Positions 6,277-40,500 of a stretch of 64,000 nt of DNA are shown piece after piece. The notes below the pieces were generated by a model. That model worked only from the letters and a program-made list of their open reading frames with translations. It made no database searches and was not told the DNA's origin. Origin of the DNA: a virus; the IMG/VR virus record IMGVR_UViG_3300012948_000003, positions 1 to 64,000 of that record. The stretch is one strand, 5' to 3'. The position numbers were made by a program, and so were the translations under genes. Every line of letters starts with the position of its first letter. Within the stretch, counting starts at the first letter, position 1.

Positions 6277-6623
6277 TAGTTCACTACGCTGTGCGCCTGA
6301 TTCTCTTCCGGACCTACTGCTCGTTTCTCCCCGTCTCTTAGTTGCCAGAATTTGTCTTGTACCGCACTGACCAGCTCCTTAATCGCTTGCCGACCTAACT
6401 CAGTGGGCGGATAGCGACTCGCTGACAGCTCTAGCAGACCCTTCCGATCTTCAGCATCAATCAACGCAGCGCATTCTGCGCAAGCCGCCCAGCGATCATC
6501 GTAAGAACAATTGAATGTCAGACGGTTAATCACCAGTTTGATCGTGAACGGCTTGCAATGATAGTCCGCTACTATCGGAGCCGGGTCACAACAGAAGTCA
6601 CAGTTGAGTGGGGCAGTTCTCAT
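6276..6623 (-). CDS. Hypothetical zinc-binding protein
   Basis: CDFC...WAACAECAALI. Confidence 0.7.
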   Translation of the reverse strand: MRTAPLNCDFCCDPAPIVADYHCKPFTIKLVINRLTFNCSYDDRWAACAECAALIDAEDRKGLLELSASRYPPTELGRQAIKELVSAVQDKFWQLRDGEKRAVGPEENQAHSVVN

Positions 6624-8056
6624 TTCGTTCTCACTTTCAACGCTTCGTCGCCTGTCGCACGAGCCATAATAAACTGGAAGCCTTCAGCTCGGGCTGCTTC
6701 AACTTCCTTCTCGAAGAGCGCGAACTGGTTCGGGTCCAGCTCCTGCATTCGGTCTACAAGGATCAACGGTACTTTACTCGCTTGCGTCCTGATCTTCGCT
6801 ATTTCTACCGCAATGCGTACGCGCCGGGCATCATTGGCTCGATCAAACGGGATGTAGTCCTGTACTGAATCTTCGAAAACATAGACCTCGCCTTCTCGTA
6901 TTTCGACACCCTGTATTGGCAGTGACTTTATCAACGACTCCTTGAGGTCGCCCAGTTCATCGAGAGACCGAGTTAGAATCTCCGATGCTGCCTCCGCCTT
7001 CTCCGCCTCGGTTTCGCGTTGTTTAATCAGATCGCGTAGAGACTGCGCCTTCATATGCACATCGCGCTTTGCTTCGATGTCGGCAATTGCTTTCTTGATC
7101 TCGTCACGTACCGGAGCCTGCTCCGCATCGAACGCCTTAAGCTGATCAGCAGCGTCGGTCTTTAACGTGTTGAGCGTTGCGGTCTGCTCGGTCTTGATGT
7201 CGTTCAGTTCTCTTATGCTGCGCATCTGTATCTCACCGACCTCTTGCTGCAAGGCTGCGATCTGTACTTCGAGCTGCTTGACTTGTGTATCTGTAGCCTG
7301 CTGCGCTTCGTTGTAACCGAGCCTGTATGCCTTCTCTGTTTCCGCCATCTTCTCTTCCATTGTAGTTCGTATGGAATCAACTCGAAGCTGGCGCTGACTC
7401 TCTTGTGTATCCAGCTCCTTCCGCTTTTCTTTTAAAAGAAAATCCCAGTCACCACCCTCCGCTTCCTCGGGGAGCGCTTTCCGGGCTTCCATTGCAGCGG
7501 CAGTAGCGGTCCTTGCTACTCGATTGATCCCGGTCCGCTCGTCATAGATCATCTTCGTTGTCGAAGCGATCACTTCGAGAGGATGCTTGCCATCGAGTGT
7601 ATCAAGGTGGAAGTTAACAGGCAGACAAGCATTGACCTGTTCCAGCGTCAGCTCCAGCGGCATCGACTCCAGCAGCAACTCTGCGCGATACTTCGGCGGA
7701 GCAATCAGGAAGTCTACCGGGTTCAGCGCAAAGCGATCCAGCAGTGAGTCTATGAAACGCTTCGAAGCTGAGATACGTCCGGTGTTAGGGAGTGAGACCT
7801 TACTGTCAGAGCGTGTCGCGGTAATCGTCTTCTCGATCTGCGTCCCGTCATCGAGTACCAGTACGACCTCGCCTTTCTTTTGTCCTTTGCGTAGCAGCGT
7901 GGCGTCGTGGCCGAATCCGAACGCTGCGCGAATAGCATTCAGGATCGACGTCTTACCGGAAGCGTTAGGCCCTTCGAGAACCGTTTCGCTGCCCGGCTTG
8001 ATCTCGATCTCCTGAATCCCGAGAATGTTCCGAATTAGTATCTGTGTTATTTTCAT
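6620..8056 (-). CDS. SMC/Rad50-like P-loop ATPase with coiled coil
   Basis: EGPNASGKTS Walker A, long central coiled coil, C-terminal LILVD Walker B. Confidence 0.85.
   Translation of the reverse strand: MKITQILIRNILGIQEIEIKPGSETVLEGPNASGKTSILNAIRAAFGFGHDATLLRKGQKKGEVVLVLDDGTQIEKTITATRSDSKVSLPNTGRISASKRFIDSLLDRFALNPVDFLIAPPKYRAELLLESMPLELTLEQVNACLPVNFHLDTLDGKHPLEVIASTTKMIYDERTGINRVARTATAAAMEARKALPEEAEGGDWDFLLKEKRKELDTQESQRQLRVDSIRTTMEEKMAETEKAYRLGYNEAQQATDTQVKQLEVQIAALQQEVGEIQMRSIRELNDIKTEQTATLNTLKTDAADQLKAFDAEQAPVRDEIKKAIADIEAKRDVHMKAQSLRDLIKQRETEAEKAEAASEILTRSLDELGDLKESLIKSLPIQGVEIREGEVYVFEDSVQDYIPFDRANDARRVRIAVEIAKIRTQASKVPLILVDRMQELDPNQFALFEKEVEAARAEGFQFIMARATGDEALKVRTK
7425..7442. repeat. 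Dispersed palindrome copy 2 (perfect; intragenic, read as FLLKE)
   Basis: TTTTCTTTTAAAAGAAAA. Confidence 0.95.
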
Positions 8057-8537
8057 TATCGTCCTTTGTCTTGCCATTGAGAGTAGCGATTAAGAACTTC
8101 GTGACCTCTTCCTGTATTCCGGGATTGTGCGATTCACGATTGCCTGCCACGTTCAAGACTGTAATCCGTTCTAGCCTAATCCAGTTCAGGAAGTCTGTTG
8201 TCACCTGCTCTTCCTCATGCTCAAACACAGGCAATGCAATCGGGAACCACGGCTTGTTATACAGCTTGCAGCATCGCTTCGTCGCTCGTGATCCTAATGA
8301 CCTGTCGTTGCCAAAGATCACTGTACCATTCGAGTTGGCGACATTGATCGAAGTACGATTCGGGTATGAACTCGACGGACTCTCCTCTGCTCCATACAAT
8401 GCAGCAAACTCGGGGTGATTGCCGTCTTCGGCTTTATAGCCTTTCGGCATCGTTCCGCCTGTCTCTAGACCGAGATGTTTGGCAGCAAGCCACCCACCTC
8501 GGTCTGCGCCTGTTTGACCACCAGAGATGATCTTCAT
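7965..8537 (-). CDS. SLOG-superfamily protein ('putative molybdenum carrier' type)
   Basis: KIISGGQTGADRGG...RT..NV..S.GT...LNVAGNRES. Confidence 0.85.
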   Translation of the reverse strand: MKIISGGQTGADRGGWLAAKHLGLETGGTMPKGYKAEDGNHPEFAALYGAEESPSSSYPNRTSINVANSNGTVIFGNDRSLGSRATKRCCKLYNKPWFPIALPVFEHEEEQVTTDFLNWIRLERITVLNVAGNRESHNPGIQEEVTKFLIATLNGKTKDDNENNTDTNSEHSRDSGDRDQAGQRNGSRRA

Positions 8538-10115: not shown

Positions 10116-10340
10116 CTACTCGACAGCAACACAGACTCGTGTTGCGCCGGGTAATGTCGTCGTTTCTTTCTTGCCACGTGCGATCTTTATCACAGTGATG
10201 TTTCGCGGGGCTTCTTCTCGATCTTCAACGATGTATGTAGGATCGGTTGGTAGTGGATCATCTATTGCCAGCTCTGTCTTGAATATCTTGCCGACTGGCA
10301 CGGTAGACAATGGAATAGATTCCGTATTGAACTGGCGCAT
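10116..10340 (-). CDS. Hypothetical protein
   Basis: AAAGGAGA RBS, partly supplied by the palindrome. Confidence 0.6.
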   Translation of the reverse strand: MRQFNTESIPLSTVPVGKIFKTELAIDDPLPTDPTYIVEDREEAPRNITVIKIARGKKETTTLPGATRVCVAVE

Positions 10341-10348
10341 CAAGTCTC

Positions 10349-10366
10349 CTTTCTTTTAAAAGAAAA
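10349..10366. repeat. Dispersed palindrome copy 3 (17/18)
   Basis: CTTTCTTTTAAAAGAAAA. Confidence 0.95.
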
Positions 10367-10379
10367 TTTGAGGAAGGAG

Positions 10380-10410
10380 AGGCGGAGGCGTATATCCGAC
10401 GCCCCCGCCT
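10380..10410 (-). terminator. GC-rich hairpin at the 3' end of the tRNA-like RNA region
   Basis: AGGCGG-A-GGCGT/ACGCC-C-CCGCCT inverted repeat; no clear U-tract. Confidence 0.4.
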
Positions 10411-10431
10411 GTTGTCTATTCTGGTAAATAG

Positions 10432-10599
10432 ATTGTCGTGACTTCACGTTGTCAATGGCGTTTAATCTAGTGATTCATTTCTCAGCAAGGCCGCTCTACC
10501 ACTAAGCTACCCCGGCATAAGATGGAGCCGGGGGACGGGATTCGGACCCGCGTCTGCCAAAGGCCGATCACCAGAGGTCGATCTGACAACCACGACGAT
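10432..10599 (-). ncRNA. Circularly permuted tRNA-like module 2 (YrlA/Y-RNA-like topology)
   Basis: - strand order: T-arm GCGGG-TCCGAAT-CCCGT, C, CCCCGGC, linker TCCATCTTAT, GCCGGGG, D-arm TAGCTTAGTGGTAGAGC. Enclosed by GTCGTG-GTTGTCA/TGACAAC-(bulge)-CACGAC. Confidence 0.75.
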
Positions 10600-10606
10600 A
10601 CTGAAC

Positions 10607-10756
10607 TTTTGAGGAATAGTCTAAGATTAAACCGGGCAGCGATTGCTCGCCGTGTCTACCATTCCACCACCCCGGCATAAGTAGTGCCGGGGGACAGGAG
10701 TCGAACCTGCAAGCCCGTTTCGTTAGATTAAGTCTCAAGCTCAGATTCCCTCAAAC
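10607..10756 (-). ncRNA. Circularly permuted tRNA-like module 1 (YrlA/Y-RNA-like topology)
   Basis: - strand order: T-arm GCAGG-TTCGACT-CCTGT, C, CCCCGGC, linker ACTACTTAT, GCCGGGG, D-arm TGGTGGAATGGTAGACAC. Closed by CGGGC/GCCCG and TTTGAGGGAAT/ATTCCTCAAA. Confidence 0.8.
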
Positions 10757-10759
10757 TGT

Positions 10760-11491
10760 TTAGGAAAGCAGAAACCCGAAGATATGCTCTCCTACGCTAA
10801 CATCAGGAGCGTCCGCACTATTCGCTTCCTCACGAGCAAACCTCACTGCTTTCAGAAGCGTCTCTACGCGCTCTGCTAGTACCGCTTTGCGCGGTGCTGG
10901 CAATGCTCCCGAGTGTTTTACTGTATCCCAGTATCCGACGAGTATGTCCTCAGTAATCATCTGAGTCTGCGCTGGGTGTTCCTTCGTTGCCTCGTACATC
11001 ACGATAGGTCGCTGCGTTTTCTTTGTACGATGCGTTGCGATAGCCGCAGTCTTATACAGACCGCTCGCACCGTCTTCGGTCCACTCGTCCGCCTCGTCCA
11101 GTACGGGCATCTTTTCGATGAACGTTCTGATGTCGGTCAGCTGCTTTTCAAGGAAGAGCAGATACGTTGCCGGAACCGACTTCAAGAGCGTCGAACCGTT
11201 CACAACGACATCCGCTCTTGCGTTGCAGTTCGCCCAGTCCTTCTGAGCCGTAACGTCCATCAGTTCCGTAGAAAGTCTCGCAACCTTCTTCAGTACAGCA
11301 TCTGCCTTGAGCTGTACTACCTTCCGCTCTGGCGGATAGTCTTCGGCGCTCTCGTCCTGACGTCGATACGTCTTCGCGAACCCGTTGAACAGGTCCGGTT
11401 TCTTTGAAGCCTGATGAAGCTCCGTCACCTCGCCGTATACTCGGCCCTTCACGCCTTTCTCGATTGCTACAATTTGATTTAGCTTTGCCAT
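10760..11491 (-). CDS. Uncharacterised helical protein (243 aa) directly upstream of the tRNA-like RNAs
   Basis: AAGGAGA RBS. KLNQIVAIEKGVK...VPATYLLFLEKQL...HPAQ...AREEAN looks like a conserved uncharacterised family (recalled, not searched). Confidence 0.8.
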   Translation of the reverse strand: MAKLNQIVAIEKGVKGRVYGEVTELHQASKKPDLFNGFAKTYRRQDESAEDYPPERKVVQLKADAVLKKVARLSTELMDVTAQKDWANCNARADVVVNGSTLLKSVPATYLLFLEKQLTDIRTFIEKMPVLDEADEWTEDGASGLYKTAAIATHRTKKTQRPIVMYEATKEHPAQTQMITEDILVGYWDTVKHSGALPAPRKAVLAERVETLLKAVRFAREEANSADAPDVSVGEHIFGFLLS

Positions 11492-11524
11492 TCAGTTTAA
11501 GTCTCCTTACGATTTGCGCATCGC

Positions 11525-11557
11525 GCCACTATATACCTAGTAATAGTGGCTTGTCAA
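11525..11557 (-). promoter_or_regulatory. Sigma70-like promoter with overlapping inverted repeat
   Basis: TTGACA (11557-11552), 18 bp, TATAGT (11533-11528); GCCACTAT-N10-ATAGTGGC overlaps it. Confidence 0.6.
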
Positions 11558-25542: not shown

Positions 25543-28500
25543 GGCTGCGCTCTCATTTCGTCGAACTTATCTAACAGCTCTTTTACCGCATCGACTCTCT
25601 TACCCGGTATCTTACCTTTGTCGGCGAGCTTACTGAAGCTCTCGATCTTAGCTTCGATGATATCATCCAACTGGTCACGCTCAGCCGGGCTGGCATCCTT
25701 CATGTAGATACCAACTGCATCCTCAAGGCTCATCTTATGGACGGCTCGCTGGAGAAACGTTGCGTCAGTCATTTTCGAGATAACCTTTGCATCGTCCGGA
25801 GTGAGTATGCCATCATCCACTGCCTTCTCGAATGCTTCGTTTGCTTCGTCGTCTTTGTCTGCCTTCATCAACCGGACGATCTCTCGCTCAGTGTTACGTC
25901 GCTCCTCTGAGTATTCCGTTGGCGGAGCCATCGGTGTCTGTCGCATAATACCCAATGCATGCTGTTCTGCTTTCGTCGGCAGCTCCGAGACAGGACGTAC
26001 CGGGATCGGCGACCAGTATGATTCTGTTTGTTTACGATCTAAGACAGTCCGCTCTGGTAGCTTCTGCCTGAGACCGGGAATACGAGCCATCGTCGGTCCG
26101 AGTAATCCTTCAGGCTTCCGTTGGATTACCCGTCCCTGTGCATCTCGATCAATGAACTGAGCTGCCGATGCCACTGCTGACGGCACGAATCGCGCTGCCA
26201 TCCCAGCAAGGTGTTGAGCCCCGGCTTTACCCGGCGCTACTTCACCACCCTTCAACGCGTGTACTTGTTCGGTTAGCGCTTGAACGCCTCGGAGTAACGG
26301 ATGCTCGCTGACCATTTGGAACATTCCCTGACCGAGTCCTTGAACGGTTCCTCGTTCGATTGCTTCGCCTATCGTTGCACCGAACGTGAGTAGCCAGCCC
26401 CAAAACGGAACCGCTCCAATCTGAATCGCATTGCCGCCAATGTAGAGCGCTCCTCGTTTCTTGTAGTCGTCTTGCATTGCACCTGTCATCAACCCGGCGC
26501 GTTGCATTCCGAGACCGAGAGCGACAAGACCGAGACCGATTGTTCCTTTCGAGACTGCCTTCAGGAAGTCTTGATGTTCTGGCAGGCTCATTACTCCCTT
26601 TTGAAAATCGTTGAAGTCTTTCAGCTTTGCCATTGCTGAAAGTCCGAGATAGTCTTTAAAGATAGTCGTCATCGCATTCACAGGTCGCTTGATAAACGGT
26701 ACTTCGGTAGTAACCGCTAGCTGTAGCATTGAGGCTAGCTTCTGCGCACCTTGCGAGTTTGGTGAGAACAACGGACGACCAGCGACTTCCCAGTCCTTCA
26801 CGTTCAGCAGCGCTCGCGCCAGTGCATTCTGCTGCGCACCAACACCTTTCGTTGCTTGCATCAATGCGTACTCGTGCAAGAGGTCTTTCGGATGCGCTAC
26901 CAGCAGGACCTGCTTACCTAAGCGCTTCGATACTGACATCGGAGTCTTTGCTTGATCAGCCTGAAAGTTGACAACGGTCTCTGCGAGCGTATCAAGAAGG
27001 TTAGCATATTGACCGCCGACCGCTGCCTGAATCTGCGCCACGAGAGGCGGGTTCTGTTTGTAGTGAGCTGCACGACTCTCCAGTGATCCTCCAAGCTGGT
27101 TAGGATCAACTCGTGCGATCATATTCGCGGCTTCTTCCAGCGCCGACTCATAATGAAATCCTCGGAAGAGATTCTCCTTTCCGCCATAGAGGCGATGCAT
27201 ATGATTTAGTAAGCCGTTAGCGACGGGGTCCCCAACATCCGTCTCTTTGTACCACGGTTGCATTAATGACGGCTTACCCTGTGCTATTTCTGCTGTTGCC
27301 TTCGCGCCTTTCTTCGCTCCTTCGATTGCAGCATTCATTACATTGCCGACAGTGAAGTCATATTTCGGAACCTGCCCCTTAGCTGCGGCACGAGTATTCT
27401 CTATCGCCGACGCTAAGAGATTCGCAGTCCAATCCATTCCTTGCTTTCCAGCGAGACCTGCTGCGACTTTGACCGCTCCAGAAGGAGTGAGGAATCCGGA
27501 GAAGTAGAGATTCCTTGCGATCTCTTTCTTCTCCTGCTTCATTCCTTTCATTACTGCCTGAAGTCTAGGAGGTATCTTGAGAGCGCCTTCTTCTTCTGCG
27601 CCGAACTGTTTTATCTGGCTCCAGATCGAATCAAGGTGCGGTTTGATCGCTGCGCCGAGTCGCTTGACCATTTGGTTCGACCAACCAGCAAAGGATTTTG
27701 TCAGCTTGTAGACATCGGCTCCAGTGATGAGTCCGACGTCACCGAAGAGCTGAAGGGGATTCATCGAAGTAACGTTGCCTACCATTGCTTGTCGGACTCG
27801 CGCCCGAGCTTCAGCAAGGAAGCGCGGTTCTCCACCGATGATCGGCTGACCTTCCGTCGTTAGGGATCGCTGCATCTCGGGATTGATCTCTACTGCACCA
27901 ACCTGAATCGGTTCCCGCATCCCTGTTTCTTCGCCAAACATTCCCTCTGTGACAGGTTTTTCTGCCGGATATAGATCGAGGACTCCTTTGCCCATTCTCG
28001 CGCCAAACTTCTTCGTTATCTTCGAGACGTAGTTCGGTATCATGCGGTCATAGAAGCCTTCGAATCCCTCCTTACGCGGCATGTAGGTCCCTTCGGGATT
28101 CGTCTGCATCTGCTTCCATATTTTTGCTGCTAATTCGTCGAGATGCTTCGTCCAGAGTTCAGGAGCATACTGCGACTCTTCACGCTTCAATGTCTTAGCA
28201 AGGATCGATCTAAGACCCTTCTCGGTCGATACGCCAGTAGCGCCCTCCATCAAGACGCCGCGTTGCCGGGCCTGCTCTTCGAGATTGATGTCACCAACCT
28301 GTCCTTGATGCTGTTCCTTTACGTTGACCTTGAATTGCCCTCGTCCTTCTGTTGATTTCTTCCAATCAATCCGTTCACTACCCCAACGATAGTACTGTTC
28401 GCTGCCGGGACTCCACGTAAGAAGGTCGTAACCGTTCTCAGCTGCATAACGCATCAAGCGTCTTAGGGCAAGCGTAGACCAGTCTTCGGTACTACCGACA

Positions 28501-31500
28501 AATGGAGCTGGCGGAATCTTAGTGCCGAGTCTGTCTTCTAAATTTTTTATCTCGCGATGCAGATCAGCCAGTTCTGTATCCCTTCTCCTGCCTTCTTTCT
28601 CTTCCAGCTCTCGACGGTAATCTTTCAGCTGTTGATCAGTAGCTCCTCGCTCCTTTGCCGACCGTAACGACTCTAACATATCGGCTGAGTCGTAATACCT
28701 CGACTGTTCCAGTTCGGTTACTAACCTTCGACGCTGAGCGAGCTGATTAGCCAATTCAGCGTCATAGTCTAACTTCCCAGTCAGCTCCCGGAGCTTCTCT
28801 ATTTCCTCTGGCGTTGCATTACCTTCCCTGCCGATGTACGGAGTACCATACTTCTTTTCGAGAGAAGAACGGTACTCCGCGTATTCCTTACGAGCCTGAA
28901 CAGCGGCTTCTGCTTGTTCCGGTTTAGCCGTTACTCCTTTACGACGTATTCCCTGACCGTAGTCGGACTGAAGCTCTTCGACATGAAACGCTCTCGCACT
29001 ATCACGTCCTTGAGCTTTCAATCGTTCAATGAGTTCAGGGAAGTCATTTCCTAAATCTTCTAAAAGAATATTCCGGTCAGTTGTTCTGGCATGTAGTATA
29101 TTGTACGGTTCGTCTGTCCAGTGCGGCTGTCTGAAGCGCCCGGCTATATGCGCCTTTGCTGCCGCTTCCATTCTAACCAACTTTGACTTTTCTTCAGGAG
29201 TCATACGGCTTGCGAGAGCGCTCTTCGCGAACACGTCTTGAGGGATGTCATATTTCTCCAGTAAGGAATTTCTGTAGTCCATGAACGCCTGATCGCCAAG
29301 CTCGGGCTCAGGGATTGAGATACGGAACTCTTTGTAATTTGTACCACCCGGCGTCTGATACCTCGGTCCGCCAAACCTTACTGTTTTCCCGGTATCAAGA
29401 TTGGCCGCGACAACTCCTTCTGCTTGCTCAAGGTTTCTATGCGAAGAACGGGTATTCGCTTGATTGACTTTATCTATGATATACTGCCGCATTTCCTCTT
29501 CAGTTGGAGCAGACAAGGTATATTGCACCGATCCGGGAGGGGCTTCTTTTGATAGCGCCTTCGTGCCGGGTCCTAGCGTGACCTTCGTGTCGGCGATCTC
29601 CGGTGGTACTGTTATTGTCCAGTGCCTCGCTTGCAGCTCCCGGTATCTTCCTGCAAGCTGATTTATACGTCCTACAAGATACGCTGCTCGCTGCCGATCT
29701 TCGAGAGTTTCGTCCGGAGTTCCAATACGTCGCTCCGTCTCGGAGTACTCTTGCTCGGCATCCATTTTCCGTTTCTTTATGTCTTCGAGCTTAGCTTCGT
29801 GACCTTCATCGCTGAGCGCCGGATAGTACCTGCCTGCGGGTTCTATTGTGACGCCTTCGGGCAGCTTCATTAGCGGAGGGTTGTCCATTACCCGGAACTG
29901 TCGTTGCTGGGTTTCTAGTTTTTCTTTTTCTTGCTCGTTGACAAGCATAACGGTCTCGATGTCCATTGCTCGTCTGCCGTATTTCTCTTCGCCGAGTTCC
30001 CTGATTAGCGGCTCGCGCCGGGCATATAGATCGTCCAGCTTCTTCCAGAGTTCCGCATGTTCCTTATCGAGCTGCGCTATCTTCTCCTGAGCCTTCTCAG
30101 CGTCCGGTCCTTGTGGCGGGACAATGTACATCGAGCGACCTTCGAGATTAGTAGCCTTCCTTACACGTGACAGGTTCTGCTCATCGAGATCATGCTCGTT
30201 GCCTTCCTTGTCGAGATGTTTCCAATCCAGTTTTGCCGCCTCTCCAGCAATTACTTCATTGATCTTGATCTCGTGCCTGTCGATCCAGTTCTTTGCTTCC
30301 TGCGGTGTTACCTTTGCATTCTCACGCTCTTCCTTTGTTGGCGTTTCACCTCGGGCAATCTTTGACTTCAGGTCTATTGCAGCTGCCGCTTTCTTTTTAA
30401 GGAAGGAATTGAATCGGGTTTCTTCCATCTCCGCATCAGAGATGCCCTGACCCTTAAGGAGCTTGCTTAGATCGGAAGCATCCATTGGCCCGGTCATCTT
30501 TGCTTCAAGTGTCTTACGGAGTGGCGAGTAGAACGCTGCACCTTGCCCGTGGAAGGCTTGTACTTGAGTCCAGAGGTCCTTAAGGATTGGCCGAACAGCT
30601 TCGCCAGCCTTCTTCAGCATCTCCTTCGACCAATCCTTAAAGTCTTTTATAGTGTGGTAGGCATCGTACCCGAGAACCATCGCGGACTTAAGTCCGTCGA
30701 TTGGATTGGCAGCGATGTTGAGTTGCCCTTCCTTACCGCTGATGTCGCGGCGGAAGCGCATAATGGTAGGATGATCAGTTGCGCGTCCGCCTAGCTCAAT
30801 GTTTCGAGCCACGTCGGGAGGGGCCACTGCTGCGGCTGGCTCGCGGCCAGCACCGACTTCAGGTACGGCACGTCCAGCCCTTCCTTCTGCGCGTTCTCCA
30901 GCAGCACCTTCGCCGACCAATAGTTCGGGGCCTCGCTCGGCTGCATACTCACTCCCAATTTTGCCAAATACTCCCTTTCCCGTTCCGACGCTGGCCGAAA
31001 TTTCTTTGGAATCATCTAATATCCTCCCAAAGGTCTCACGTCCTGCTTCACCCCTTCCGAGCGCTTTTTCTATCAGGCGTGAGACCTGACCGAAGTCATG
31101 ATACACATGAGACATAGCCGCTGTCAAATCCGACGAGAATCCCTCGTAATGATTACGCTGAAGACGATGGATCAGCTCATGCGTCATCGTTGCCGCCATA
31201 TGACGAGCATACTCTTGCGTCTCTTCGCCTTTCATATAGACGCCGAGATCGATCTTCTTTTGAATGTAGTCTGCGGTAGCGTATGGATTCAGAAGAACAA
31301 TATCCGGACCGGGTGTTTGAAACACCATCGGATGCGGCAGGTTGATCCCGTAATAGTTACTTGCATCGGGCGACTTGTGCGTTCCGAACCCGGCATAGTG
31401 AACATTTTGATAATCCTCATTCAAGGACATCAAGCGATTCCTTAAAATCTCCCATCCTTTCTGAAGCGCATTCGTCAAAGGCGCTGCATACGGGGCTTTA

Positions 31501-34500
31501 CTTAGCCTGTCTATTAGCTCTTTCGGCATCTGCCCGGTTGTATCCACTAGGCGATGCTGAAGCGGACCTGCCTGTGCCCAATACGCGTTCATCAGGTCAT
31601 TAGCTGTCTTTGGGAACTGAGGCTCGTCAGGCTCGGGGGTGTGAGCCTCTTTGATATCCGGGTACAGTCGTTTGAGCGCTTCTTCTTGAGAAAAACTTCC
31701 ATCTGCATGTGTTAAGACGAGACCATCGTCAGTTTTGACAATCCAATCTCCTTCGCGGATAACTCCACCTTCCTCCCAAGACCTCGCTCGTCTGAATGTT
31801 AAGCCCCACGGCGACAGGTCTACTGTCTTTTCTCTCGGACCAACCTCGAAAGACCGTCCGCCTTTGATCTTCGGAGCCTTCTTCAGTGTATCAGTATAGA
31901 GCTGATTCTCTCTTCGGATCGCTTCTCCGGTTAGGTCTCTTCTAACATAGTTTTTGACAGCTTCATCTGTCGCTCCTGATAAATCTTCCCGTGACGGCAG
32001 GAATGGATAATTTGTCGGGTCCTCTTCGGGATTCTTGTGAGCATGCACATCTACCATTATCCTGTTCGGAAGCATTACCGCTTCATTGGTTGGCAGGCTG
32101 ATCTCTTTGACGAACTGCGGCAAGCCGTTATTCAATACTTGTACGCGACCTAAGTACTGTGGGCTCATTTCATCAGAGCCGTAAATTTCTATATCAGCAC
32201 CGGGTACTGTCATACTGCGTATTAGCTTGACAGGGATATTGTCGGGATGCCTTGCATCTTCCGCTGTGATCTGCTTCCCGTTGATATTCATATCGAAGTC
32301 ATACGGAAGTCGATGACGCGCCAAAAACTCAGCTGCTTGAGTTGCCAGACCGTTAGTTCCGGTTTCCTCCATCTGGAACTTTGTATTCTCAGCTTCCTGA
32401 AAAGGCTCGCGTACTTGCAGCCGCAGGAGCGTACCTGTTGGTTCCGGTTTGTCTAAAACGCGAGTCTCAAACTTCAAGCCTCCTTCCATCGGACGAGACC
32501 ATTGCATATACGCTGGTCGGTCATCGCGGTGCAGGCTAGTAACAATAGACTCGTGGTACTTCCCAGTTTCAGGATCGCGATAGACCGTACGTACGTCTGC
32601 CTTTTCAGCATTCCCCATCAACGCGGCTATCGCGATGCCGAGTCCGCCTGAAGCGCCTTGCTCCTTTCCCCACGTGCCACCTATGTTGACGAATTGATTC
32701 TTTACGACATCTGGAGGCATTCCAGTGCCGTTATCTTGAATCCGTATCATTCGGTTAGCTGTATTGACAGTGAGTTCAATGTGTCCTCGTTCACCTTCCT
32801 TGAAGTCCATTCTGCGAAGCGCGTCTACTGCATTCTGTAATCCCTCCTTTACCATCGTCCGGGGAAGATTACCCTTGTAGAGTCCGCCTATCATAATCGC
32901 TTGCAGGCGTGGCTCAATCCCCATCCCGATCTCGCCCTCACGGACCTCGATCTTCGAAGGACGCTCCGGGAATGCTCTACTGAGAAGGACATTTTCTTCT
33001 GATGGATCGTAGGTGCCTATATTGCCAGTGGCGCTCTTGATCTGTTTAGGATCGAAGGCAATATAGGAATCTTCGGCTGTCGGCCACCGCTTCTTGAAAT
33101 CGGCATCAGTCATCCGGTTGCCAAACATGAAAGCAGCCATTAGGTCCCGGTTAACGCCTTCGCGACGATTCAGGTAAACGATTCCATCATAGCCTGAGTC
33201 AGTAATAATCTTTCTCAGCTTCTCATTGAGTCTTTGATGAACCGCTCCGCCTATTCCGGTTTTGGCATATACCCTGTCGAGCAGCTTATCGTGCTCGCGA
33301 TCCGAAATCAGTCCTGCATCGTAGAGCTGTGGGATTATTTCCTCTGGTCTGAAGTTACCGTTATCGACCATGCGCAACGGGTTCTTCATCGAGAGATAGA
33401 CGGGCATTACATTTGTTCCTTCGCCCTCTATTCCTTTTCTGCCCTGCTTCAACATCATTGTTTCGGCAAGGTCGTTGACTTGATTTTGAGTTCCGAAATG
33501 CGTACCTATTTCATCTGTATCGGCTCTTCGACCTTTCGTGTCGAAGGTATGGAAGTCTTCATTCGTGACGTGTTGCAGAACTTTCGGCGAACCATCGGGC
33601 TCCTTCAACCCTTCATAGTTACCTTCAGTGAATTTCTCCAGCGGTGTTCCTAACGCCTCTGCGCCCATTGGAACCTCTCTCATGAAAGGTCCGAGCTTAA
33701 GCCGTTCTTCCTTCTTCTTCGGGAATCTCTTCGCGAGTAGAGTACCCTCCTTTTCGTCTGGATGCGCAATCAGCGCAAGTTTTAGTTGTCTTTGTGCCTC
33801 CTGCGGAAATTCTTTTAAAAGAAAAGGGTGTTCTCCACGAACAGAGTCATATGCATCTTTCAGATAATCGACAGCAGCGGTCGCTTCTGGCGTCATCCGT
33901 CCAGCCTGAGCCCCCTCCAGACCTTTTGCCAGCGATCCAATAGGGTTCTCGTGAGACGCAAGAATGGACTTGACTGTGTCTATTGTATCTTCAAGGTCAT
34001 GTCCCGGCTTACGTGTAGGTAGGATTACTTTCGATATCTCTTCGATTGCGTCATCCAGCATCTTACGACGATCAGGCGTAGTCGTGTGATAGTCTCTCCA
34101 GAACTGAGTCCGTCGTTCTTCGACATCGGCAGGTACCTGACCAATCCTTCTAAATGGAGCTGTGGTCTTGAATGCTTTGACCTTCTTTGAAAGCAGAGGT
34201 TCGTCTTCGGTCGGATGCACTATTTGGTTCCGGTTGAAGATCAGCATCTCTTCTCGCGGACCCGGTCTCATATTCCGCATGATGATCGCGTCGTGACCTT
34301 CCGACTCTGCCCAGTCTCGTAGACCTTGAAGATCATTGCTATCCCGAACTTCATACTTGTTTCCATTATGCGAGTAGACGTCGAACGGTAAGGTCTGCGT
34401 GTTGGCAATAGGATCGACAAACATTCCCTCCGGTGTTTCATCGATTATGTTTAATCGCGGACTCAGCTTGCCATTAACTGTTTGCAGGACCTCTTCGGGA

Positions 34501-37500
34501 TCGATAATCAGCGGGTTCCTGACGCGGACCTGCGTACTAACGACGTGACGTCCGTAGTATCGCGCAGTGTCTTCATCCTGACCAAAGTAAATTCCCTTCC
34601 CGAGACTACCGGGATAGCCGGGCTCGCGCTCTTCGAGATTCTCTGGAGTAAGAGTGTCGTCGTCGCTGCCGTGATGCGCTTCGAGTATTTGTTCGTCCGG
34701 GAATCGTCTTGACAGTTCTGGTTCTTCGCCGGGCTTAGGCACGAGTGAGAGCTTCCGCGTCTTCGGAGTCAGTTGATCAAGAGTTTCTTCGACTAGGTTA
34801 CGTCCGACTGATCGATGCGAGCGTCCAGTGTTGATCGGTACTAGCTCGCCGTATTTCCGAACGTACTCTTCCTTGAGTCTATCAACTCCGCCGCGATAGC
34901 CTTCCTTGTATCGTTGATCGGCGTACCTGTCGAATGTCAAGAGGTATTGATTGTCTAGTTCTTTTAAGTCTTCAGGTGAGAGTGAGGCGAGCTTATCCTC
35001 TAAGCGCTTCTTTAAGAACTTCGCTCTACCGGGTAGGACTTTGCCACCGAAGCGCTTTGCGAGCTGAGGATTGTCCTCGTAGAACTGGTTTAGTTCTTCC
35101 TGCTCGTTGCGTTCCATTTCTTCAAGGTCTGCTTCGAGCGGAGACTTCCCGTAGGGATACGCTGGCTCAGTCGCTCCGTGATCTTGAGGAAATTCGCGAG
35201 ACTCGAATGGTAACTCTAGCTGTTCTGCCTGCGGTACTCCTCCTCGACCGCGCTGTCCCCGCCTTGTCGGTACGCCTCCAGCAATCGGTGGAGGCGATCC
35301 AGAGACTCCGGGGTAAGGCTCGACTCCGGTTGGTTGAACAGATCGGGGAGGTCCTCCTTCAGTCGCTGCTGTACTTCCTCCCGGCTCAAGATTTGCATAT
35401 CCTCTTTCCGTAGCGGATTCGGTCTGTAGACGCGCCCTCTTCTCTTCATAAAACCTCCGGTTCTCTTGTCTGACTTCTAACGCGGCTCGCTGTAATACGC
35501 TTTCTGCCGCATCGCCATAATGTTCGTTAAGAGTCCTGATAACATGTTTCACTAATCGCGCCTGTTCGTCAAGGGAAAGACGGAAATTTGGCGGCGCGGT
35601 AGGTTCGGCTAAATTTCTACTGCCGCCACCTACATGGCCTATTACTTCCATTGCTCGGACTATTGGATCATTGTCGTAACCTTTGGCGGCAAGTATCATA
35701 TCCATTTTTAAAGCCGCCAATTCGTCATGTGTCAGGTCGTTAATATCTTCTTTTTCAAACCCGAACAGTGCATTAGTAAAGCTCGCAACTCGTTCCCGAT
35801 CCTCAAGTCTCGGAAACGAATTACGAAGCACTGTCATTGCGGAATGAGTACCCTCATGACGAATAGTTGTAATAAACGCTCGTAATCCCTTCGCGCCTTC
35901 CATCCCCGGTTCTGTACCTGTATACGGGCTTACTATTTCATACGCTGGTTCGTTCTTTTGATAAGCGTCCACTAGATCGCGGTAAAGCGTATAAAGAGGA
36001 CTACTGGGAGGAAGATCGAAGAACTGTATTGTCTTCCCTAGTTCGTATGCCAGCTTACCGTAGCCATCGCGCTTCATACTTGCGCCGTCCGCCTCTTGAA
36101 CGTCCATTATCGTACCAAGAACTCGACCAGCAGCATCGTTCAGAAAAGCTCGACGTATTCGCCCCGGTCGTGGCGACTCTTCCGCCTGTCGCCTCTGTGC
36201 GAACTTCACCGATATTCTGCGAGAAGTGACATCGCGATCATCCAGCGCTCTGTCGGAAGTACTATTAAGCGATAGCAGCGGAGGCTCTGACGGTTCGCCT
36301 GCGAGATAGCCCGGCAGGTCTCGCTCAAGGTCATCCTGATTAATGAGCCGCTCACCAACCGGGACGCCTTGCGACGTATAACCTAATCCTCTCGCTTCGC
36401 TATGGCCCAGTGCCGCATACGCTACTCGCTCCGCATCCCACATGCGCTCTTGAACTTCAGCAGGCTTGATACGGAGCTGCCGTGCAACCTGTCGCCACGC
36501 TTCATCAGCGAGACGTCGCATCTTGATATTCTCTTGATTTAGTTTACCTCCCCACGGTTGATCGCTGATCGGTCTGCCGAAGTATCGCGCCATCGTGCGA
36601 GCATACCAGAGGTCCTTCGTGATCGGTCCGAACTCTCCCCAGCGATTCAAGATATAGCTTCCCTGCTTTGGAGAACTATCCCCTAACGCAAACACGCCGA
36701 AGGACGGATTGACTTTATCAAGATACTCGTGCTTCTTGATCTTCTTAGCAGCGTCCTTCCCGATCATATCAACGATCTCGCTCCACGGATGCTTTGTAGC
36801 CATCCAGTCGATTGCTGCACCGAGATCGCCATCGAACCTTGTAGTCAGTAGCTCATTGAACCGATTAAGGCTTCGGATATTGAATGCCTTCGTCAGCTTT
36901 GCCCGTTTCGTTGGATGACGTAATTCCTCATTGCCCTTCCGGATGAAAGTCTTCTTCCCGGTCGCTGCATCGATGTAGACTGGTTGCCTTATTTCTTTCC
37001 CGGTCACGGGATCGAACTTCAATCCTGCTTCTCTTCTAGGTACCCACTCTGTCGGAATCCAGTCTGCTTTCTGTCGCGTTCGAGTATAGTAATCGTATAC
37101 TGGCTTAAGTCCGCCGAGTCCGGTAGCTGTGCCTGTACGTACATATTCATCGAACGCTCGCATCCCGTATGCGGTGTCCATACCGGGAGGCTGAGCGCCG
37201 GATGCATACGCAGAAAGCATATGAAGGAAAGAAATCTCCGGATCGGTTAACTGACGATCATAGCGACCTTCCGCCCACTTCTGAAGCAACGGATTAGTTC
37301 TTTCGGTGATATCTGTCGAATAGAACGGCACATAGTCTCGTGCGATCCTTCTCCACGCTCTTATTTCAGCGAGTGTATGCTTGACGATTGCTTCTATTGC
37401 ACGGCGCTGACCAGAAGGCGTATTTAGATTCATTCCACGGGTAACAACCGGACGTCTCGCCCCGTATGCACCGAGCCACTCCTTTGATTTCTTCAGCGCC

Positions 37501-40500
37501 TGCTTCGCTCGACCTGTCCCAACGACCGGGAATGGAGGCTCACCTCGTAGGAAGCGCTCGATCTGTAGAAGCGGTGGTTCGATATCGGGTTCGGGTTCTT
37601 CGACCTCAGCCCATTGAGAGTCTCTCTCTGGCATAACAGGTCTGAAGTGTTTCATGAATAGGATATTGCCTTCGTCATCCCTCAGTTCCTGTTGTGCTCG
37701 CTTGTAGGCTTCGGGGAAATGCTCCTTTGCGACGTCTGGATAATTGGCAAGTAACTGCTCCCAGTCGGTCGGGTATTCCGGTTGCCCTGCATCCCGACGT
37801 CCTACGTTAATCGAATCCATGATTGACTTGAATTTCTCGGGACTAAAGAACGCAGGACCTTCAATGCCGATATCTGCCCACTCGACACGTGGCAGGTCTA
37901 AGTTCTTACCTCTCGCCGTCCAGTGGGATCGTCCTTGTTCATCACGAACAAGAGTCTCGCCATTAGGCAATCGTCCGATAGCAGTGACATTGCCCCAGTC
38001 TTTCCGCCAGCCCGGAATCATAGGAGCGTTCTCGCCCAGTTCACCATGACGTTGCTCAGCGAAAGCATCCTGTTGCTCTTTGGGCGTCATCGCCTTCGCT
38101 GGTGCTTCCGCTGGCTTCGGTGCTCCGACGAAGGCAGGGATACCTTTCTCGATCAGCTCTTCGCCGGGTATTACTGGCGGAGCTGGCGGAGGCAATGTTA
38201 CCGCTGGTGCTCTTGCTGCCGCCTCTGCCTCTTCGGCTGTCGGCTCACCTCGACCTCTGAATTCTTCTGGCTCCTCCCAGCCTTCGGGCAGCGGTCGTTC
38301 CGGTACTTCATATGATCGCGGAGTAAAGCCCAACGAAGCCATACGAGCCCTGTAGTCTTCCGGTGATTCACCCGCGAGACGGTACCCGGCAGTTGACACA
38401 CGTCGTTCAGGACCCGCGTAAGGTGCAGGAACCGTTTCGGGTCCTTGTATTACTTGAGGAGCTGCTGGCGTAGGCTCTTCCCATGCTCCGTACTGCTGAC
38501 GAAGATGTTCGAGCTGCTCCGGTGTTGCTACTGGTTCTTCCGGTGGAGGCACTGCGGGAACTTCTTCCGGAGCTGGCGCACGACGACCCGCTTCGAGTTC
38601 TTCTCTGCTACGCCATCGGACTTGATAGCCAGTTATGTAGTTTGGTACTGCGCCTCTTCTGGTGGTTCGCGTGACGATCTCGCCTCTAGCGCCTTCTGGC
38701 AGATTCGCTAGGAACCTTTCAGCTGATTCTCTGCTGTTGCGTCCATAGACAGGACTCATTCTGTAATCCGGGCGCACGTCGGTCACATCTGAGATATCAT
38801 AGCTTCGTAGGGTTCCGTCTTCACCGATTACCTGTACCTTACTTCCTCTTCGTCTGACTACTTGTAGCGGCTCACCAGTGCCTCTTGTAGTTCTTCCAGT
38901 GTAGTAGACGACCTGCCCTTGTAATGCTGGAGTAGGAGTCTTGATTCTCTCTGGTCCTACGAGCGCTACTGGAATATCCGGACGACCCGGAGACCTCCAG
39001 ACATTATCTTCTCTCTGATACGGATACCATTTGCCTCCCACTTCTATGAAGGTGGTCGGCGTTGGAACTGGCGAGACGAATGGTTCACGGGCTCCCGGAA
39101 GCTCTTCGCCCGGTAGAGGTCTCGCTTCGAAACCTCTCTCTGCTACTTCAGGAGGAGCTGGAGCTGGCGGAGGTGGACCTGTCGGTGGCATTATTCCACG
39201 ACCGCGCATGATGTGATGCAGCTCTTCGAGATTCAGCGGCGGAGTATCATCAGGCAATGAATGAAAGACCTGTCGCTCGACATCATGCAATGGTCGTCCG
39301 AACTGTTCTCGTTCGAGATTCTCCGCTTCCGCATGTGCGCGTTCTTCTGCTCGTGCTCGATGCCATGCTGGAGTCGCTACTTGTAGACGTGCCGTACCGG
39401 GAACTACTTCGAAGCCGCGACCAGCTTCTTCAGCTGCACGGGGTCCACGTATCCTTGCCTCTTCCGCTCGGAACGCATCAGCGAGTTGCTGCTTTCTCTC
39501 GATTGGAAGCGCTGCCGCTTCTGCTGGCGTAATTCCTTGCCCGGCGAGAAACTCATTGAGCCGATTCCTCAGCCTTAGCTGTGCGGCAGACGGAGGTCCG
39601 ACTCCCGGTTCTGGAACACCGTACGCCGCAAAGCCCGGACCTTGTATTGGAGCTTGCTCAGCTATTGCCCTGCCTCGCTCACGGGCTTCATAAGCGGGAC
39701 CATGTGGGCCAGCTAATGCTTCAGTACCGTACATTAGGATGGCGTTCATCAGAGCCTGACGTTGACCTTCCGGCGTTGATAGATCAGGTAATCGACCTGA
39801 TACGATTGCTTGTGGAAGTTCAAATCCTCCGGTTGCTAATGCACCTCGTGCCGCTAATCCTCTTATTCCTCCCCACGGTACTTCGCTGGTAAGAGCGCCT
39901 GCGAGTTTCGCCCCGGCAGCGGTCGTTATACCATGCATGACCGCTTCTCTGTACGGCAGTCCCTGACCGAGAGCTTGCGTAAAGCTCATAATGCCAAGTC
40001 CGACGTTACCACCTCCAGCAGCGAACAACGGAATCAGCTCCGCAGCTGCACCAGCTACTTGTTCTGGTGTAAGCGGACCGGGCTGAGGAGCGCCGGGTCC
40101 TGTTGCTCCGACTTCCTGCCACGCTCGACCTGCCGTGCCCAATGCTCGACCTAACGGAGCAAGCGGTCTCATCTGAGAATACCCCAGCCGAGCATCCTCT
40201 AATAATCTCCCTGCGCCAGACAGCATAGCTCCGCCACCGCGACCCATCGCACCACCTATAAGCTCCAACGGCCAATCTAGTACATCTCCGCCTCTTGCCG
40301 CCAATTGCTCTATGTATGGTAATGCTGCTCGACGTCGTTGCTCTGCTGCGGCAGCAGCTTCCTGCGCCTGTCGCGCTTGCGTTGCTTGCTGTTCTGCGGC
40401 TAGCCATTGCTCACGGCGAGCGGCGATTGCTTCCGGCGTCATCTCGGGCGCACCAGCAGCAGCCATTCGACGAAGCGTTCTGCTTATCGGTTGGGTTACA

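What the first reader, a model, noticed from the sequence alone, without database searches (positions are those of the whole stretch)
10432..11557. Tandem circularly permuted tRNA mimics behind an uncharacterised gene: candidate new ribonucleoprotein
Seen (- strand): promoter, 243-aa gene, then two ~150-170-nt modules starting 4 nt after the stop. Each has tRNA parts in permuted order (T-arm, acceptor 3' strand CCCCGGC, 9-10-nt linker ending CTTAT, acceptor 5' strand GCCGGGG, D-arm) and no anticodon loop. Each is closed by a long bulged stem, and both carry the same extra C between T-stem and acceptor. Their T- and D-arm sequences differ but still pair. Known: this topology occurs in bacterial YrlA Y RNAs, which partner Ro60/Rsr, and in two-piece tmRNA genes. 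No Ro60/TROVE gene is in this window. Inference: the adjacent protein may bind these RNAs as an undescribed RNP, for example a decoy for tRNA-targeting defence nucleases or an RNA-repair adaptor.
Basis: partly seen in the sequence, partly recalled or inferred. Interest (0 to 1): 0.85.

Follow-up and report, generated by a model that had tools for sequence, protein, structure and literature searches.

The report
Double tRNA-mimic RNA beside DUF7873
Right after an unstudied phage gene (DUF7873) lies a folded RNA of about 300 bases carrying two back-to-front tRNA look-alikes; the same gene-RNA pair recurs in hundreds of bacteria and many phages without the Ro60 protein that normally partners such RNAs, so it is probably an undescribed RNA-protein system.

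Summary
On the minus strand a sigma-70-like promoter and a 243-aa DUF7873 gene (10760-11491) are followed by two tandem circularly permuted tRNA-like modules (about 10599-10752 and 10452-10587).

- **Membership.** Covariance models built from other genomes, without the window, hit both modules full-length (86.8 and 94.6 bits). Nothing else in the 64 kb matches.
- **Gene-RNA link.** The RNA follows the gene in about 96 % of 170 homologous loci. It is present in 55 of 55 gene-positive Streptomyces genomes (Fisher p 1e-26). It is the only strong hit in each of five complete bacterial chromosomes.
- **Structure.** Covariation is very strong and includes the tRNA elbow pair G19-C56.
- **Ro60.** Ro60/TROVE is absent from this 104-kb phage and from 4 of 5 isolate phages. 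It is uncorrelated with the gene in Streptomyces.
- **Closest known.** YrlA has the same topology, but the match is only 32.6 bits against a cut-off of 69, and there is no Ro60.
- **Protein.** DUF7873 folds confidently (pLDDT 96.8) but has no informative structural relative.

The gene-RNA linkage is shown. Physical binding, RNA processing and function are inferred only.

I found no publication or Rfam family describing this pair. This scan has already noted the same pair on other DNA (84 notes, at least 70 genomes).

The parts
11528..11557 (-). Sigma-70-like promoter TTGACA-18-TATAGT upstream of the DUF7873 gene
   Evidence: Consensus scan, 11 of 12 matches. It is a consensus match only; transcription was not shown.
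10760..11491 (-). DUF7873 gene, 243 aa
   Evidence: PF25283 at 335.7 bits over 1-242 of 244 positions. The family has 2,325 clusters at 50 % identity. The AlphaFold model has pLDDT 96.8.
10599..10752 (-). RNA module 1: permuted Leu-type tRNA-like domain on a long bulged closing stem
   Evidence: Model R2, built without the window, hits 10602-10744 at 86.8 bits, E 5e-18. Fold; sequence.
10694..10710 (-). Module 1 T-arm (GCAGG TTCGACT CCTGT)
10670..10692 (-). Module 1 acceptor stem (CCCCGGC / GCCGGGG) closed by the linker A-CTACTTAT
10452..10587 (-). RNA module 2: permuted class-I tRNA-like domain with the closing helix P2 and conserved AUCGAC / CUGA / UUAAACG loop motifs
   Evidence: Model R1, built without the window, hits at 94.6 bits, E 1.3e-19, full length. 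Rfam YrlA gives 32.6 bits. Fold.
10535..10551 (-). Module 2 T-arm (GCGGG TCCGAAT CCCGT)
10510..10533 (-). Module 2 acceptor stem (CCCCGGC / GCCGGGG) with the linker T-CCA-TCTTAT, that is, discriminator U plus an encoded CCA
10381..10409 (-). GC-rich hairpin after module 2, a probable end of the transcript
   Evidence: Seen in the sequence. It does not meet the U-tract rule of the strict terminator scan.

Best explanation
**Shown.**
- The window holds one member of a widespread two-part cassette: a DUF7873 gene followed on the same strand by a structured non-coding RNA of about 300 nt.
- The RNA has two tandem, circularly permuted tRNA-like heads. Module 1 is tRNA-Leu-like and module 2 is class-I-like.
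- Each head is an L-shaped tRNA mimic. Its acceptor stem is closed by a linker, and its anticodon stem continues into a long helix carrying conserved internal loops.
- The pairing of gene and RNA is near-obligate and does not depend on Ro60.

**Inferred.**
- Gene and RNA are co-transcribed from the promoter at 11557-11528.
- DUF7873 binds, or acts on, the conserved closing-helix loops, much as Ro60 grips the stem of a Y RNA.
- The two tRNA-like heads dock tRNA-recognising enzymes such as RNase P, the CCA-adding enzyme, modification enzymes and perhaps LeuRS. They would act either to recruit those enzymes or to titrate them.
- The frequent N-CCA directly after the acceptor 3' strand, and G1 in 92 % of modules, suggest that RNase P and 3' processing can open the linker to give base-paired pieces with a tRNA-like end.

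**Odds.**
- The cassette being a real, functional, Ro60-independent gene-RNA unit: about 0.9.
- The protein physically binding or processing the RNA: about 0.55.
- The cellular role is unknown. General RNA metabolism or stress handling that phages have borrowed fits the distribution best.
For: - **Membership.** R1 and R2 hits in the window at 94.6 and 86.8 bits, from models that exclude the window.
- **Linkage.**
  - Module 2 is found downstream on the same strand in 86 of 90 viral and 78 of 80 bacterial loci. Module 1 is found in 80 of 90 and 63 of 80.
  - Among 101 Streptomyces genomes, 55 have the gene. All 55 have the RNA adjacent, and only 2 genomes have the RNA alone. Fisher p 1e-26.
  - In five complete chromosomes the only strong hit is the one beside the gene.
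  - No other neighbouring gene is conserved.
- **Structure, on 100 module-2 RNAs.**
  - 94 % of cells are paired, against 56 % in shuffles and 33-48 % with slid partners. The covariation score is 0.95 against 0.22.
  - The elbow pair G19-C56 covaries (CG 91, UA 8, GC 1) although it was not part of the model.
  - The anticodon-like stem averages 5.15 bp against 2.65 for permuted partners, with tRNA geometry in 64 of 100.
- **Processing hints.** CCA is encoded in 35 of 95 module-1 and 41 of 95 module-2 copies. The module-1 discriminator is A in 84 of 95. G1-C72 occurs in 92 %. 56 of 90 viral loci sit among tRNA genes, and all 206 of those tRNAs are on the same strand.
- **Ro60 independence.**. 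In Streptomyces the odds ratio is 1.8, p 0.17.
Against: - There are no transcript, binding or processing data of any kind.
- DUF7873 is near-neutral (median pI 6.5), so it is not an obviously basic RNA binder.
- It has no structural relative that would indicate RNA binding or catalysis.
- Exceptions exist.
  - Gene without RNA: L064/L065 and L140.
  - RNA without gene: L178 and L179.
  - RNA inverted (L110) or 1.3 kb away (L100).
- In far relatives (under about 35 % identity) often only one module or only the tRNA-like core is recognisable. Two of nine such loci showed no clear module.
- An earlier in-house check priced the binding claim at only 22 in 100 (note e1-2703945).
- The hairpin that ends the unit lacks a clear U-tract.
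Confidence: 0.55

Rival explanations
1. These are ordinary YrlA-type Y RNAs that work with the host's Ro60 (Rsr). DUF7873 would be an accessory factor or merely a neighbour.
For: The topology is the same. Rfam YrlA matches module 2 full-length at 32-38 bits in the window and in eight other loci. One carrier phage, Rhizobium RHph_Y65, does encode TROVE 5.5 kb away. 34 of 55 gene-positive Streptomyces genomes also have TROVE.
Against: Scores are half the gathering threshold. The closing-helix motifs (AUCGAC / UUAAACG) differ from the YrlA consensus. TROVE is absent from this phage and from 4 of 5 isolate phages. 21 of 55 gene-positive Streptomyces lack TROVE, and there is no significant association (p 0.17). 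TROVE is never adjacent to the gene. RHph_Y65 has a separate YrlA-like hit next to its own TROVE gene. The host of this phage is unknown, so host Rsr cannot be excluded here.
Confidence: 0.1
2. The RNA is a stand-alone tRNA decoy or sponge, or the RNA half of a toxin-antitoxin-like pair. Under the sponge reading it acts without binding DUF7873, and adjacency reflects co-regulation. Under the antitoxin reading the RNA neutralises the protein.
For: RNA-only loci exist (L178, L179). The heads keep acceptor, T, D and elbow features that tRNA enzymes and acceptor-end-targeting toxins recognise. The cassette moves between phages and chromosomes as a compact unit.
Against: Co-occurrence is near-perfect across phyla, with fixed order and strand. 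That is stronger than co-regulation usually gives. The two modules are not identical repeats as in ToxI-type antitoxins. DUF7873 has no nuclease or toxin signature and no PADLOC match.
Confidence: 0.15
3. The modules are a cis-acting 3' UTR device. tRNA-like punctuation would set the 3' end or the stability of the DUF7873 mRNA through RNase P or RNase Z.
For: The RNA starts within about 10-20 nt of the stop codon, with no promoter or terminator in between in the window. G1 and an encoded CCA suggest RNase P and 3' processing.
Against: Two elaborate domains with conserved unpaired motifs and a 9-bp covarying closing helix are far more than a processing signal needs. The RNA persists without the gene (L178, L179), inverted (L110), 1.3 kb away (L100) and duplicated (L165).
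Confidence: 0.1
4. They are circularly permuted or split tRNA genes that mature into decoding tRNAs. Alternatively they are att-site remnants of tRNAs.
For: The arms are genuinely tRNA-like in sequence. Permuted tRNA genes exist in some algae (established knowledge).
Against: There is no anticodon loop. The anticodon-like stem runs on into a long helix whose ends are the RNA's termini. ARAGORN and Rfam tRNA find nothing. The halves of one module are complementary to each other and covary across 100 loci. The cassette lies at unrelated sites without integrases.
Confidence: 0.02

Closest known systems
YrlA, the bacterial and phage Y RNA-like RNA bound by Ro60/Rsr (Rfam RF02553; Chen et al. 2014, PMC4201824)
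   Same: Both are circularly permuted tRNA mimics with the order T-arm, loop-closed acceptor stem, D-arm. In both, the 5' and 3' ends pair into a long stem. Both are often present in more than one copy and are encoded next to a protein partner. M. smegmatis YrlA is cut by RNase P in vitro and is cleaved and receives CCA in vivo (PMC4201824). That parallels the encoded N-CCA seen here.
   Different: The match reaches only 32.6 bits against a gathering score of 69. No Ro60/TROVE is present in the genome, and TROVE shows no association elsewhere. The partner gene is DUF7873, a 245-aa protein with a different and unmatched fold. The RNA has two fixed, non-identical heads, Leu-type and then class-I. 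The closing helices carry their own conserved motifs.
Two-piece (permuted) tmRNA with SmpB
   Same: The gene order is permuted, with the acceptor 3' strand plus CCA lying before the acceptor 5' strand. Maturation by cleavage within the linker is plausible. A small dedicated protein partner is often encoded nearby.
   Different: ARAGORN finds no tmRNA. Rfam tmRNA scores only about 6 bits. The D-arm is complete, no tag reading frame or pseudoknot series is evident, and there are two heads.
[quoted passage not shown]
   Same: They are bacterial non-coding RNAs that keep the acceptor/T-loop elbow of tRNA and lack an anticodon arm.
   Different: They are different Rfam families (RF02924, RF02926, RF03030). 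None matches the region even at E 10. They are single-headed and have different connectivity. The preprint does not mention DUF7873 or permuted or tandem forms.

Membership tests
DUF7873 (Pfam PF25283) | Protein scores above the Pfam gathering cut-off over the full-length profile | tested here: met
   335.7 bits against a cut-off of 27, covering 1-242 of 244 positions
DUF7873-associated double tRNA-mimic RNA (models R1 and R2 made here) | Full-length match to both module models, on the gene's strand and immediately 3' of a DUF7873 gene | tested here: met
   R1 gives 94.6 bits at 10452-10587(-). R2 gives 86.8 bits at 10602-10744(-). Both models were built without the window.
YrlA / Ro60 Y RNA system (Rfam RF02553) | Reaches the Rfam gathering score of 69 bits | tested here: not met
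   32.6 bits for module 2 and no hit for module 1. Other loci score 32-38 bits.
YrlA / Ro60 Y RNA system (Rfam RF02553) | Permuted tRNA-like topology with paired 5' and 3' ends | tested here: met
   with covariation
YrlA / Ro60 Y RNA system (Rfam RF02553) | Encoded within about 4 kb of a Ro60/TROVE gene (the criterion of Chen et al. 2014) | tested here: not met
   No TROVE in the 104-kb genome. It is absent from 4 of 5 isolate phages and is never adjacent in 101 Streptomyces genomes.
YrlA / Ro60 Y RNA system (Rfam RF02553) | The RNA stem is bound by Ro60 | not testable with these tools
   This needs immunoprecipitation or a binding assay. The host of this phage is unknown.
tRNA | Cloverleaf in normal order with an anticodon loop | tested here: not met
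   ARAGORN finds 0 genes. Rfam tRNA has no match in the window or in the whole genome.
Two-piece tmRNA | Detected as a permuted tmRNA carrying a tag reading frame | tested here: not met
   ARAGORN finds none. Rfam tmRNA scores 6.6 and 5.7 bits against a gathering score of 47.
tLRNA families (skipping-rope, DUF2693-FD, salivarius-1) | Match to RF02924, RF02926 or RF03030 | tested here: not met
   None is listed for 10300-10850 at E up to 10.
Type III toxin-antitoxin (ToxIN-like) | Array of near-identical RNA repeats next to an endoribonuclease toxin | tested here: inconclusive
   The two modules differ in their T and D arms. DUF7873 has no PADLOC match and no nuclease-like structural match. Toxicity was not tested.

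The most novel reading that the evidence does not exclude
After RNase P and 3' processing open the linkers, the heads would become anticodon-less tRNAs ending in CCA and held together by the long helices. Module 1 keeps features that, from established knowledge, LeuRS uses. These are the A73 discriminator, a Leu-type D-arm and an intact elbow. LeuRS does not read the anticodon. Module 1 could therefore be charged with leucine. DUF7873 would then use or sense an aminoacylated tRNA mimic outside the ribosome, as an amino-acid donor, a charging sensor, or bait for enzymes that attack tRNA acceptor ends.
Probability: 0.07. Interest if true: 0.9.

Novelty: new variant of a known kind. Interest (0 to 1): 0.72.

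Why it matters
Y RNA-type tRNA mimics have so far been tied to Ro60. Here the same RNA architecture, doubled, travels with a different and structurally unmatched protein. It occurs in at least about 600 bacterial species of several phyla and in many cultured phages (Arthrobacter, Gordonia, Rhodococcus, Rhizobium, Ralstonia, Vibrio, Klebsiella, cyanophages).

The region is left unannotated in every deposited phage genome I inspected, and Rfam has no family for it.

If the pair forms a particle, it would be a second, independent family of tRNA-mimic ribonucleoproteins. It would also be directly testable in genetically tractable hosts such as Streptomyces, or Gordonia and Arthrobacter with their phages. 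It may help explain why such RNAs sit inside phage tRNA clusters. At the least, it deserves an RNA family model, so that genome annotation stops missing it and stops miscalling it as odd tRNAs.

Tried and rejected
- **Rfam.** A gathering-threshold search of the whole window gave nothing. ARAGORN also gave nothing.
- **Protein family libraries.** PHROGs, PADLOC and NCBIfam gave no family for the protein.
- **Sequence search against PDB.** An HMM search of PDB sequences found nothing.
- **Structure searches.**
  - Foldseek against PDB and BFVD, and VIA-align wide, gave no informative match.
  - The best hit was 3kdq, a protein of unknown function, at Z 8.9 and rmsd 7.6 Å.
  - The remaining hits were generic helical hairpins.
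  - The ESM Atlas gave only unnamed clusters.
- **Cross-module fold (note e1-6024779).** It is rejected as a conserved feature. The acceptor stems of the two modules are identical only in the window and in L009 among the loci I read closely.
- **ARAGORN 'tRNAs' after the gene in Streptomyces.** They are artefacts of an extra hairpin that mimics the acceptor strand.
- **Conserved protein neighbours.** None were found.
- **Seeding searches.**
  - The 76-sequence alignment was too diverse to seed search for related loci.
  - Single far-relative seeds found few loci.
- **Papers not held.**
  - Burroughs & Aravind 2016 and the 2020 Ro60 review could not be opened.
  - No held paper mentions DUF7873.
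Full report
**What is in the window**

On the minus strand, a sigma-70-like promoter (TTGACA-18-TATAGT, 11557-11528) precedes a 243-aa ORF at 10760-11491. That ORF is a full-length member of Pfam DUF7873 (335.7 bits).

Two modules with tRNA parts in permuted order follow the stop codon.
- Module 1:
  - T-arm 10710-10694
  - one extra nucleotide
  - acceptor 3' strand CCCCGGC at 10692-10686
  - linker A-CTACTTAT
  - acceptor 5' strand GCCGGGG at 10676-10670
  - a tRNA-Leu-type D-arm
- Module 2:
  - T-arm 10551-10535
  - one extra nucleotide
  - CCCCGGC at 10533-10527
  - linker T-CCA-TCTTAT
  - GCCGGGG at 10516-10510
  - a class-I D-arm

Neither module has an anticodon loop. Each is closed by a long bulged helix. 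A GC-rich hairpin at 10381-10409 ends the unit. ARAGORN and Rfam at gathering thresholds find nothing. At a permissive threshold, module 2 matches Rfam YrlA end to end, but at only 32.6 bits against a gathering score of 69.

The window is part of a 104,444-bp viral record estimated to be complete. That record has no TROVE/Ro60 gene, no RtcB and no tRNA gene. The cassette lies in a replication and recombination module. The neighbouring genes are DnaB, a PD-(D/E)XK nuclease and RusA on one side, and Erf and YqaJ on the other.

**Is it more than chance, and is it conserved?**

The first five viral homologues (34-51 % protein identity) and eight cultured phages were examined. The eight are Arthrobacter Mimi, Gordonia Phendrix and Keelan, Pseudanabaena Pam2, Rhizobium RHph_Y65, Ralstonia RSL1, Vibrio D517 and Klebsiella FBKp24. 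All carry such modules directly after the gene. Their acceptor sequences differ but remain complementary. The deposited annotations leave this stretch empty.

A strict pattern scan gave these counts:
- at least one module within 700 nt downstream in 149 of 171 loci
- at least two modules in 95 of 171 loci
- 0.008 expected per equivalent stretch elsewhere in the same loci

I then built covariance models for module 2 (R1, 36 sequences) and module 1 (R2, 45 sequences), leaving the window out.
- Both hit the window uniquely and full-length, at 94.6 and 86.8 bits.
- R1 found module 2 on the gene's strand just downstream in 86 of 90 viral and 78 of 80 bacterial loci.
- R2 found module 1 in 80 of 90 and 63 of 80.

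**Reverse test**

In five complete bacterial chromosomes of 3.8-11.5 Mb, the only strong full-length R1 hit is the one beside DUF7873.

In 101 Streptomyces genomes:

| Comparison | Counts | Statistic |
|---|---|---|
| DUF7873 gene | 55 of 101 | |
| RNA (R1, E ≤ 1e-8) | 57 of 101, including all 55 gene-positive genomes, always adjacent | Fisher p 1e-26 |
| TROVE | 56 of 101 | |
| Gene and TROVE (both / gene only / TROVE only / neither) | 34 / 21 / 22 / 24 | OR 1.8, p 0.17 |

TROVE is never adjacent to the gene.

No other neighbouring gene is conserved. In complete chromosomes the flanks are ordinary cellular genes without phage hallmarks. In phages, 56 of 90 loci lie within 2.5 kb of tRNA genes, and all 206 of those tRNAs are on the same strand.

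**Exceptions**
- Gene without RNA: L064/L065 and L140.
- RNA without gene: L178 and L179.
- One inverted copy (L110), one copy 1.3 kb away (L100), and one duplicated RNA pair (L165).
- Far relatives (about 27-37 % identity):
  - Seven of nine still have at least one module. Often only the tRNA-like core is recognisable, and often only one head.
  - The Microcoleus phage is ambiguous.
  - Prevotella phage Lak-A1, where the protein match is partial, shows no module.
  - The rule is therefore very strong among relatives above about 40 % identity. It is looser and less well sampled beyond that.

**Structure**

These results come from an Infernal alignment of 100 module-2 RNAs, one per locus.
- The proposed structure pairs in 94 % of cells. 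Shuffles give 56 % and slid partners 33-48 %. The covariation score is 0.95 against 0.22.
- The 9-bp closing helix P2 and the D-stem were not used to pick the sequences. Both show up to six pair types per position.
- T-loop C56 and D-loop G19 pair in all 100 sequences and covary (CG 91, UA 8, GC 1). This pair was not in the model. It is the tRNA elbow interaction, so the heads very probably fold into the tRNA L-shape.
- An anticodon-like stem averages 5.15 bp, against 2.65 ± 0.13 for permuted partners. In 64 of 100 sequences it has the canonical spacing of one nucleotide after the D-stem and a 4-nt variable loop.
- Conserved unpaired motifs sit in the closing helix. AUCGAC is on the 5' side, and CUGA and UUAAACG are on the 3' side. 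They are natural candidates for a protein-binding site.
- Module 1 has a Leu-type D-arm with a 3-bp stem. Its discriminator is A in 84 of 95 loci. Module 2 has U (52) or G (37) as discriminator.
- CCA directly follows the discriminator in 35 of 95 module-1 and 41 of 95 module-2 copies. Window module 2 (T-CCA) is one of these.
- G1-C72 occurs in 92 % of module-2 RNAs.
- These features point to RNase P and 3'-end processing at the linker. Chen et al. reported this kind of processing for M. smegmatis YrlA (PMC4201824). This is an inference and was not shown here.

**The protein**

DUF7873 is a large family: 5,681 clusters at 90 % identity and 2,325 at 50 %. It is almost always a stand-alone protein of about 245 aa. 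The AlphaFold model is very confident (pLDDT 96.8). It shows four long helices and long beta-hairpins.

Nothing informative came from any of these searches:
- PDB sequences
- PDB structures
- viral models
- PADLOC, PHROGs and NCBIfam
- the ESM Atlas

The family is near-neutral, with a median pI of 6.5. A few polar residues are highly conserved: D85, N88, K116, K158, H172, Q175, D182 and N224. Neither RNA binding nor catalysis can be read from the sequence or the model.

**Interpretation**

The genetic unit is well established. It consists of DUF7873 plus a double-headed tRNA-mimic RNA, it is independent of Ro60, and it is present both in bacterial chromosomes of several phyla and in phages.

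The likeliest mechanism is a ribonucleoprotein. The protein would hold, or process, the conserved closing-helix loops, and the heads would engage tRNA-recognising enzymes.

The rivals, each with evidence in its own section of this report, are:
- use of host Ro60
- an independent decoy, or a toxin-antitoxin-like RNA
- a cis-acting 3' UTR device
- true permuted tRNA genes or att remnants

**Known or new?**

- No held paper mentions DUF7873.
- Papers on YrlA tie it to Ro60.
- The October 2026 preprint on three tRNA-mimic families concerns other Rfam families, none of which matches here.
- An earlier in-house note says that Burroughs & Aravind (2016) raised the idea of Ro-independent tRNA-like partners. 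I could not open that paper.
- This scan has already noted the same pair on other DNA, in 84 notes from at least 70 genomes. Earlier follow-ups reached the same reading.
  - the covarying elbow pair
  - the genus-wide co-occurrence and TROVE tables
  - the exceptions
  - the far-relative sample
  - the fact that this carrier phage has no tRNA genes at all

Noticed in passing
L173:6744-6769 and equivalent positions in about 14 Streptomyces loci: A CCCCGGCC...GGCCGGGG hairpin lies just after the DUF7873 stop codon. Its 3' arm copies the module-1 acceptor 5' strand. ARAGORN therefore calls spurious 88-nt 'tRNAs' with varying anticodons that end at the module-1 acceptor 3' strand. It could be an alternative-pairing switch or just a lineage-specific terminator.
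   Followed up: partly
L014:41-115 (Rhizobium phage RHph_Y65, about 138.8 kb): This phage carries both the DUF7873 cassette and, 5.5 kb away, a 529-aa TROVE protein. That TROVE gene has its own separate YrlA-like hit (37.3 bits) about 0.9 kb upstream. The two systems therefore coexist in one genome.
   Followed up: partly
Streptomyces genomes G001, G010, G011, G024, G041, G044, G064, G071, G092, G097, G104: TROVE and DUF7873 lie on the same contig, consistently 65-140 kb apart. This suggests that both sit in one conserved chromosomal region. The likeliest cause is synteny rather than functional linkage.
   Followed up: no
L165:6170-7040: In a Ktedonobacterales genome the whole two-module RNA is duplicated in tandem (R2, R1, R2, R1), about 0.9 kb downstream of the gene.
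   Followed up: no
L178:1971-2102 and L179:2016-2152: Two Streptomyces genomes keep a strong module-2 RNA (86 and 75 bits) with no DUF7873 within 2 kb and no module 1. They may be decaying loci, or cases where the RNA works with a gene encoded elsewhere.
   Followed up: partly
window 6620-8537 (-): A circularly permuted YpsA SLOG-domain gene (190 aa) overlaps the start of an AAA_15 / AbiEii-like ATPase gene (485 aa), just downstream of the recombination genes. The pair looks like a defence or counter-defence module.
   Followed up: no
window 25539-41270 (-): A single open reading frame of 5,243 aa, a giant phage protein.
   Followed up: no
L007:572-1100 (Gordonia phage Phendrix): A phage-encoded tmRNA (Rfam, 89 bits) lies in the same tRNA cluster that holds the DUF7873 cassette. 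It falls in a stretch with no annotated feature in the record.
   Followed up: no
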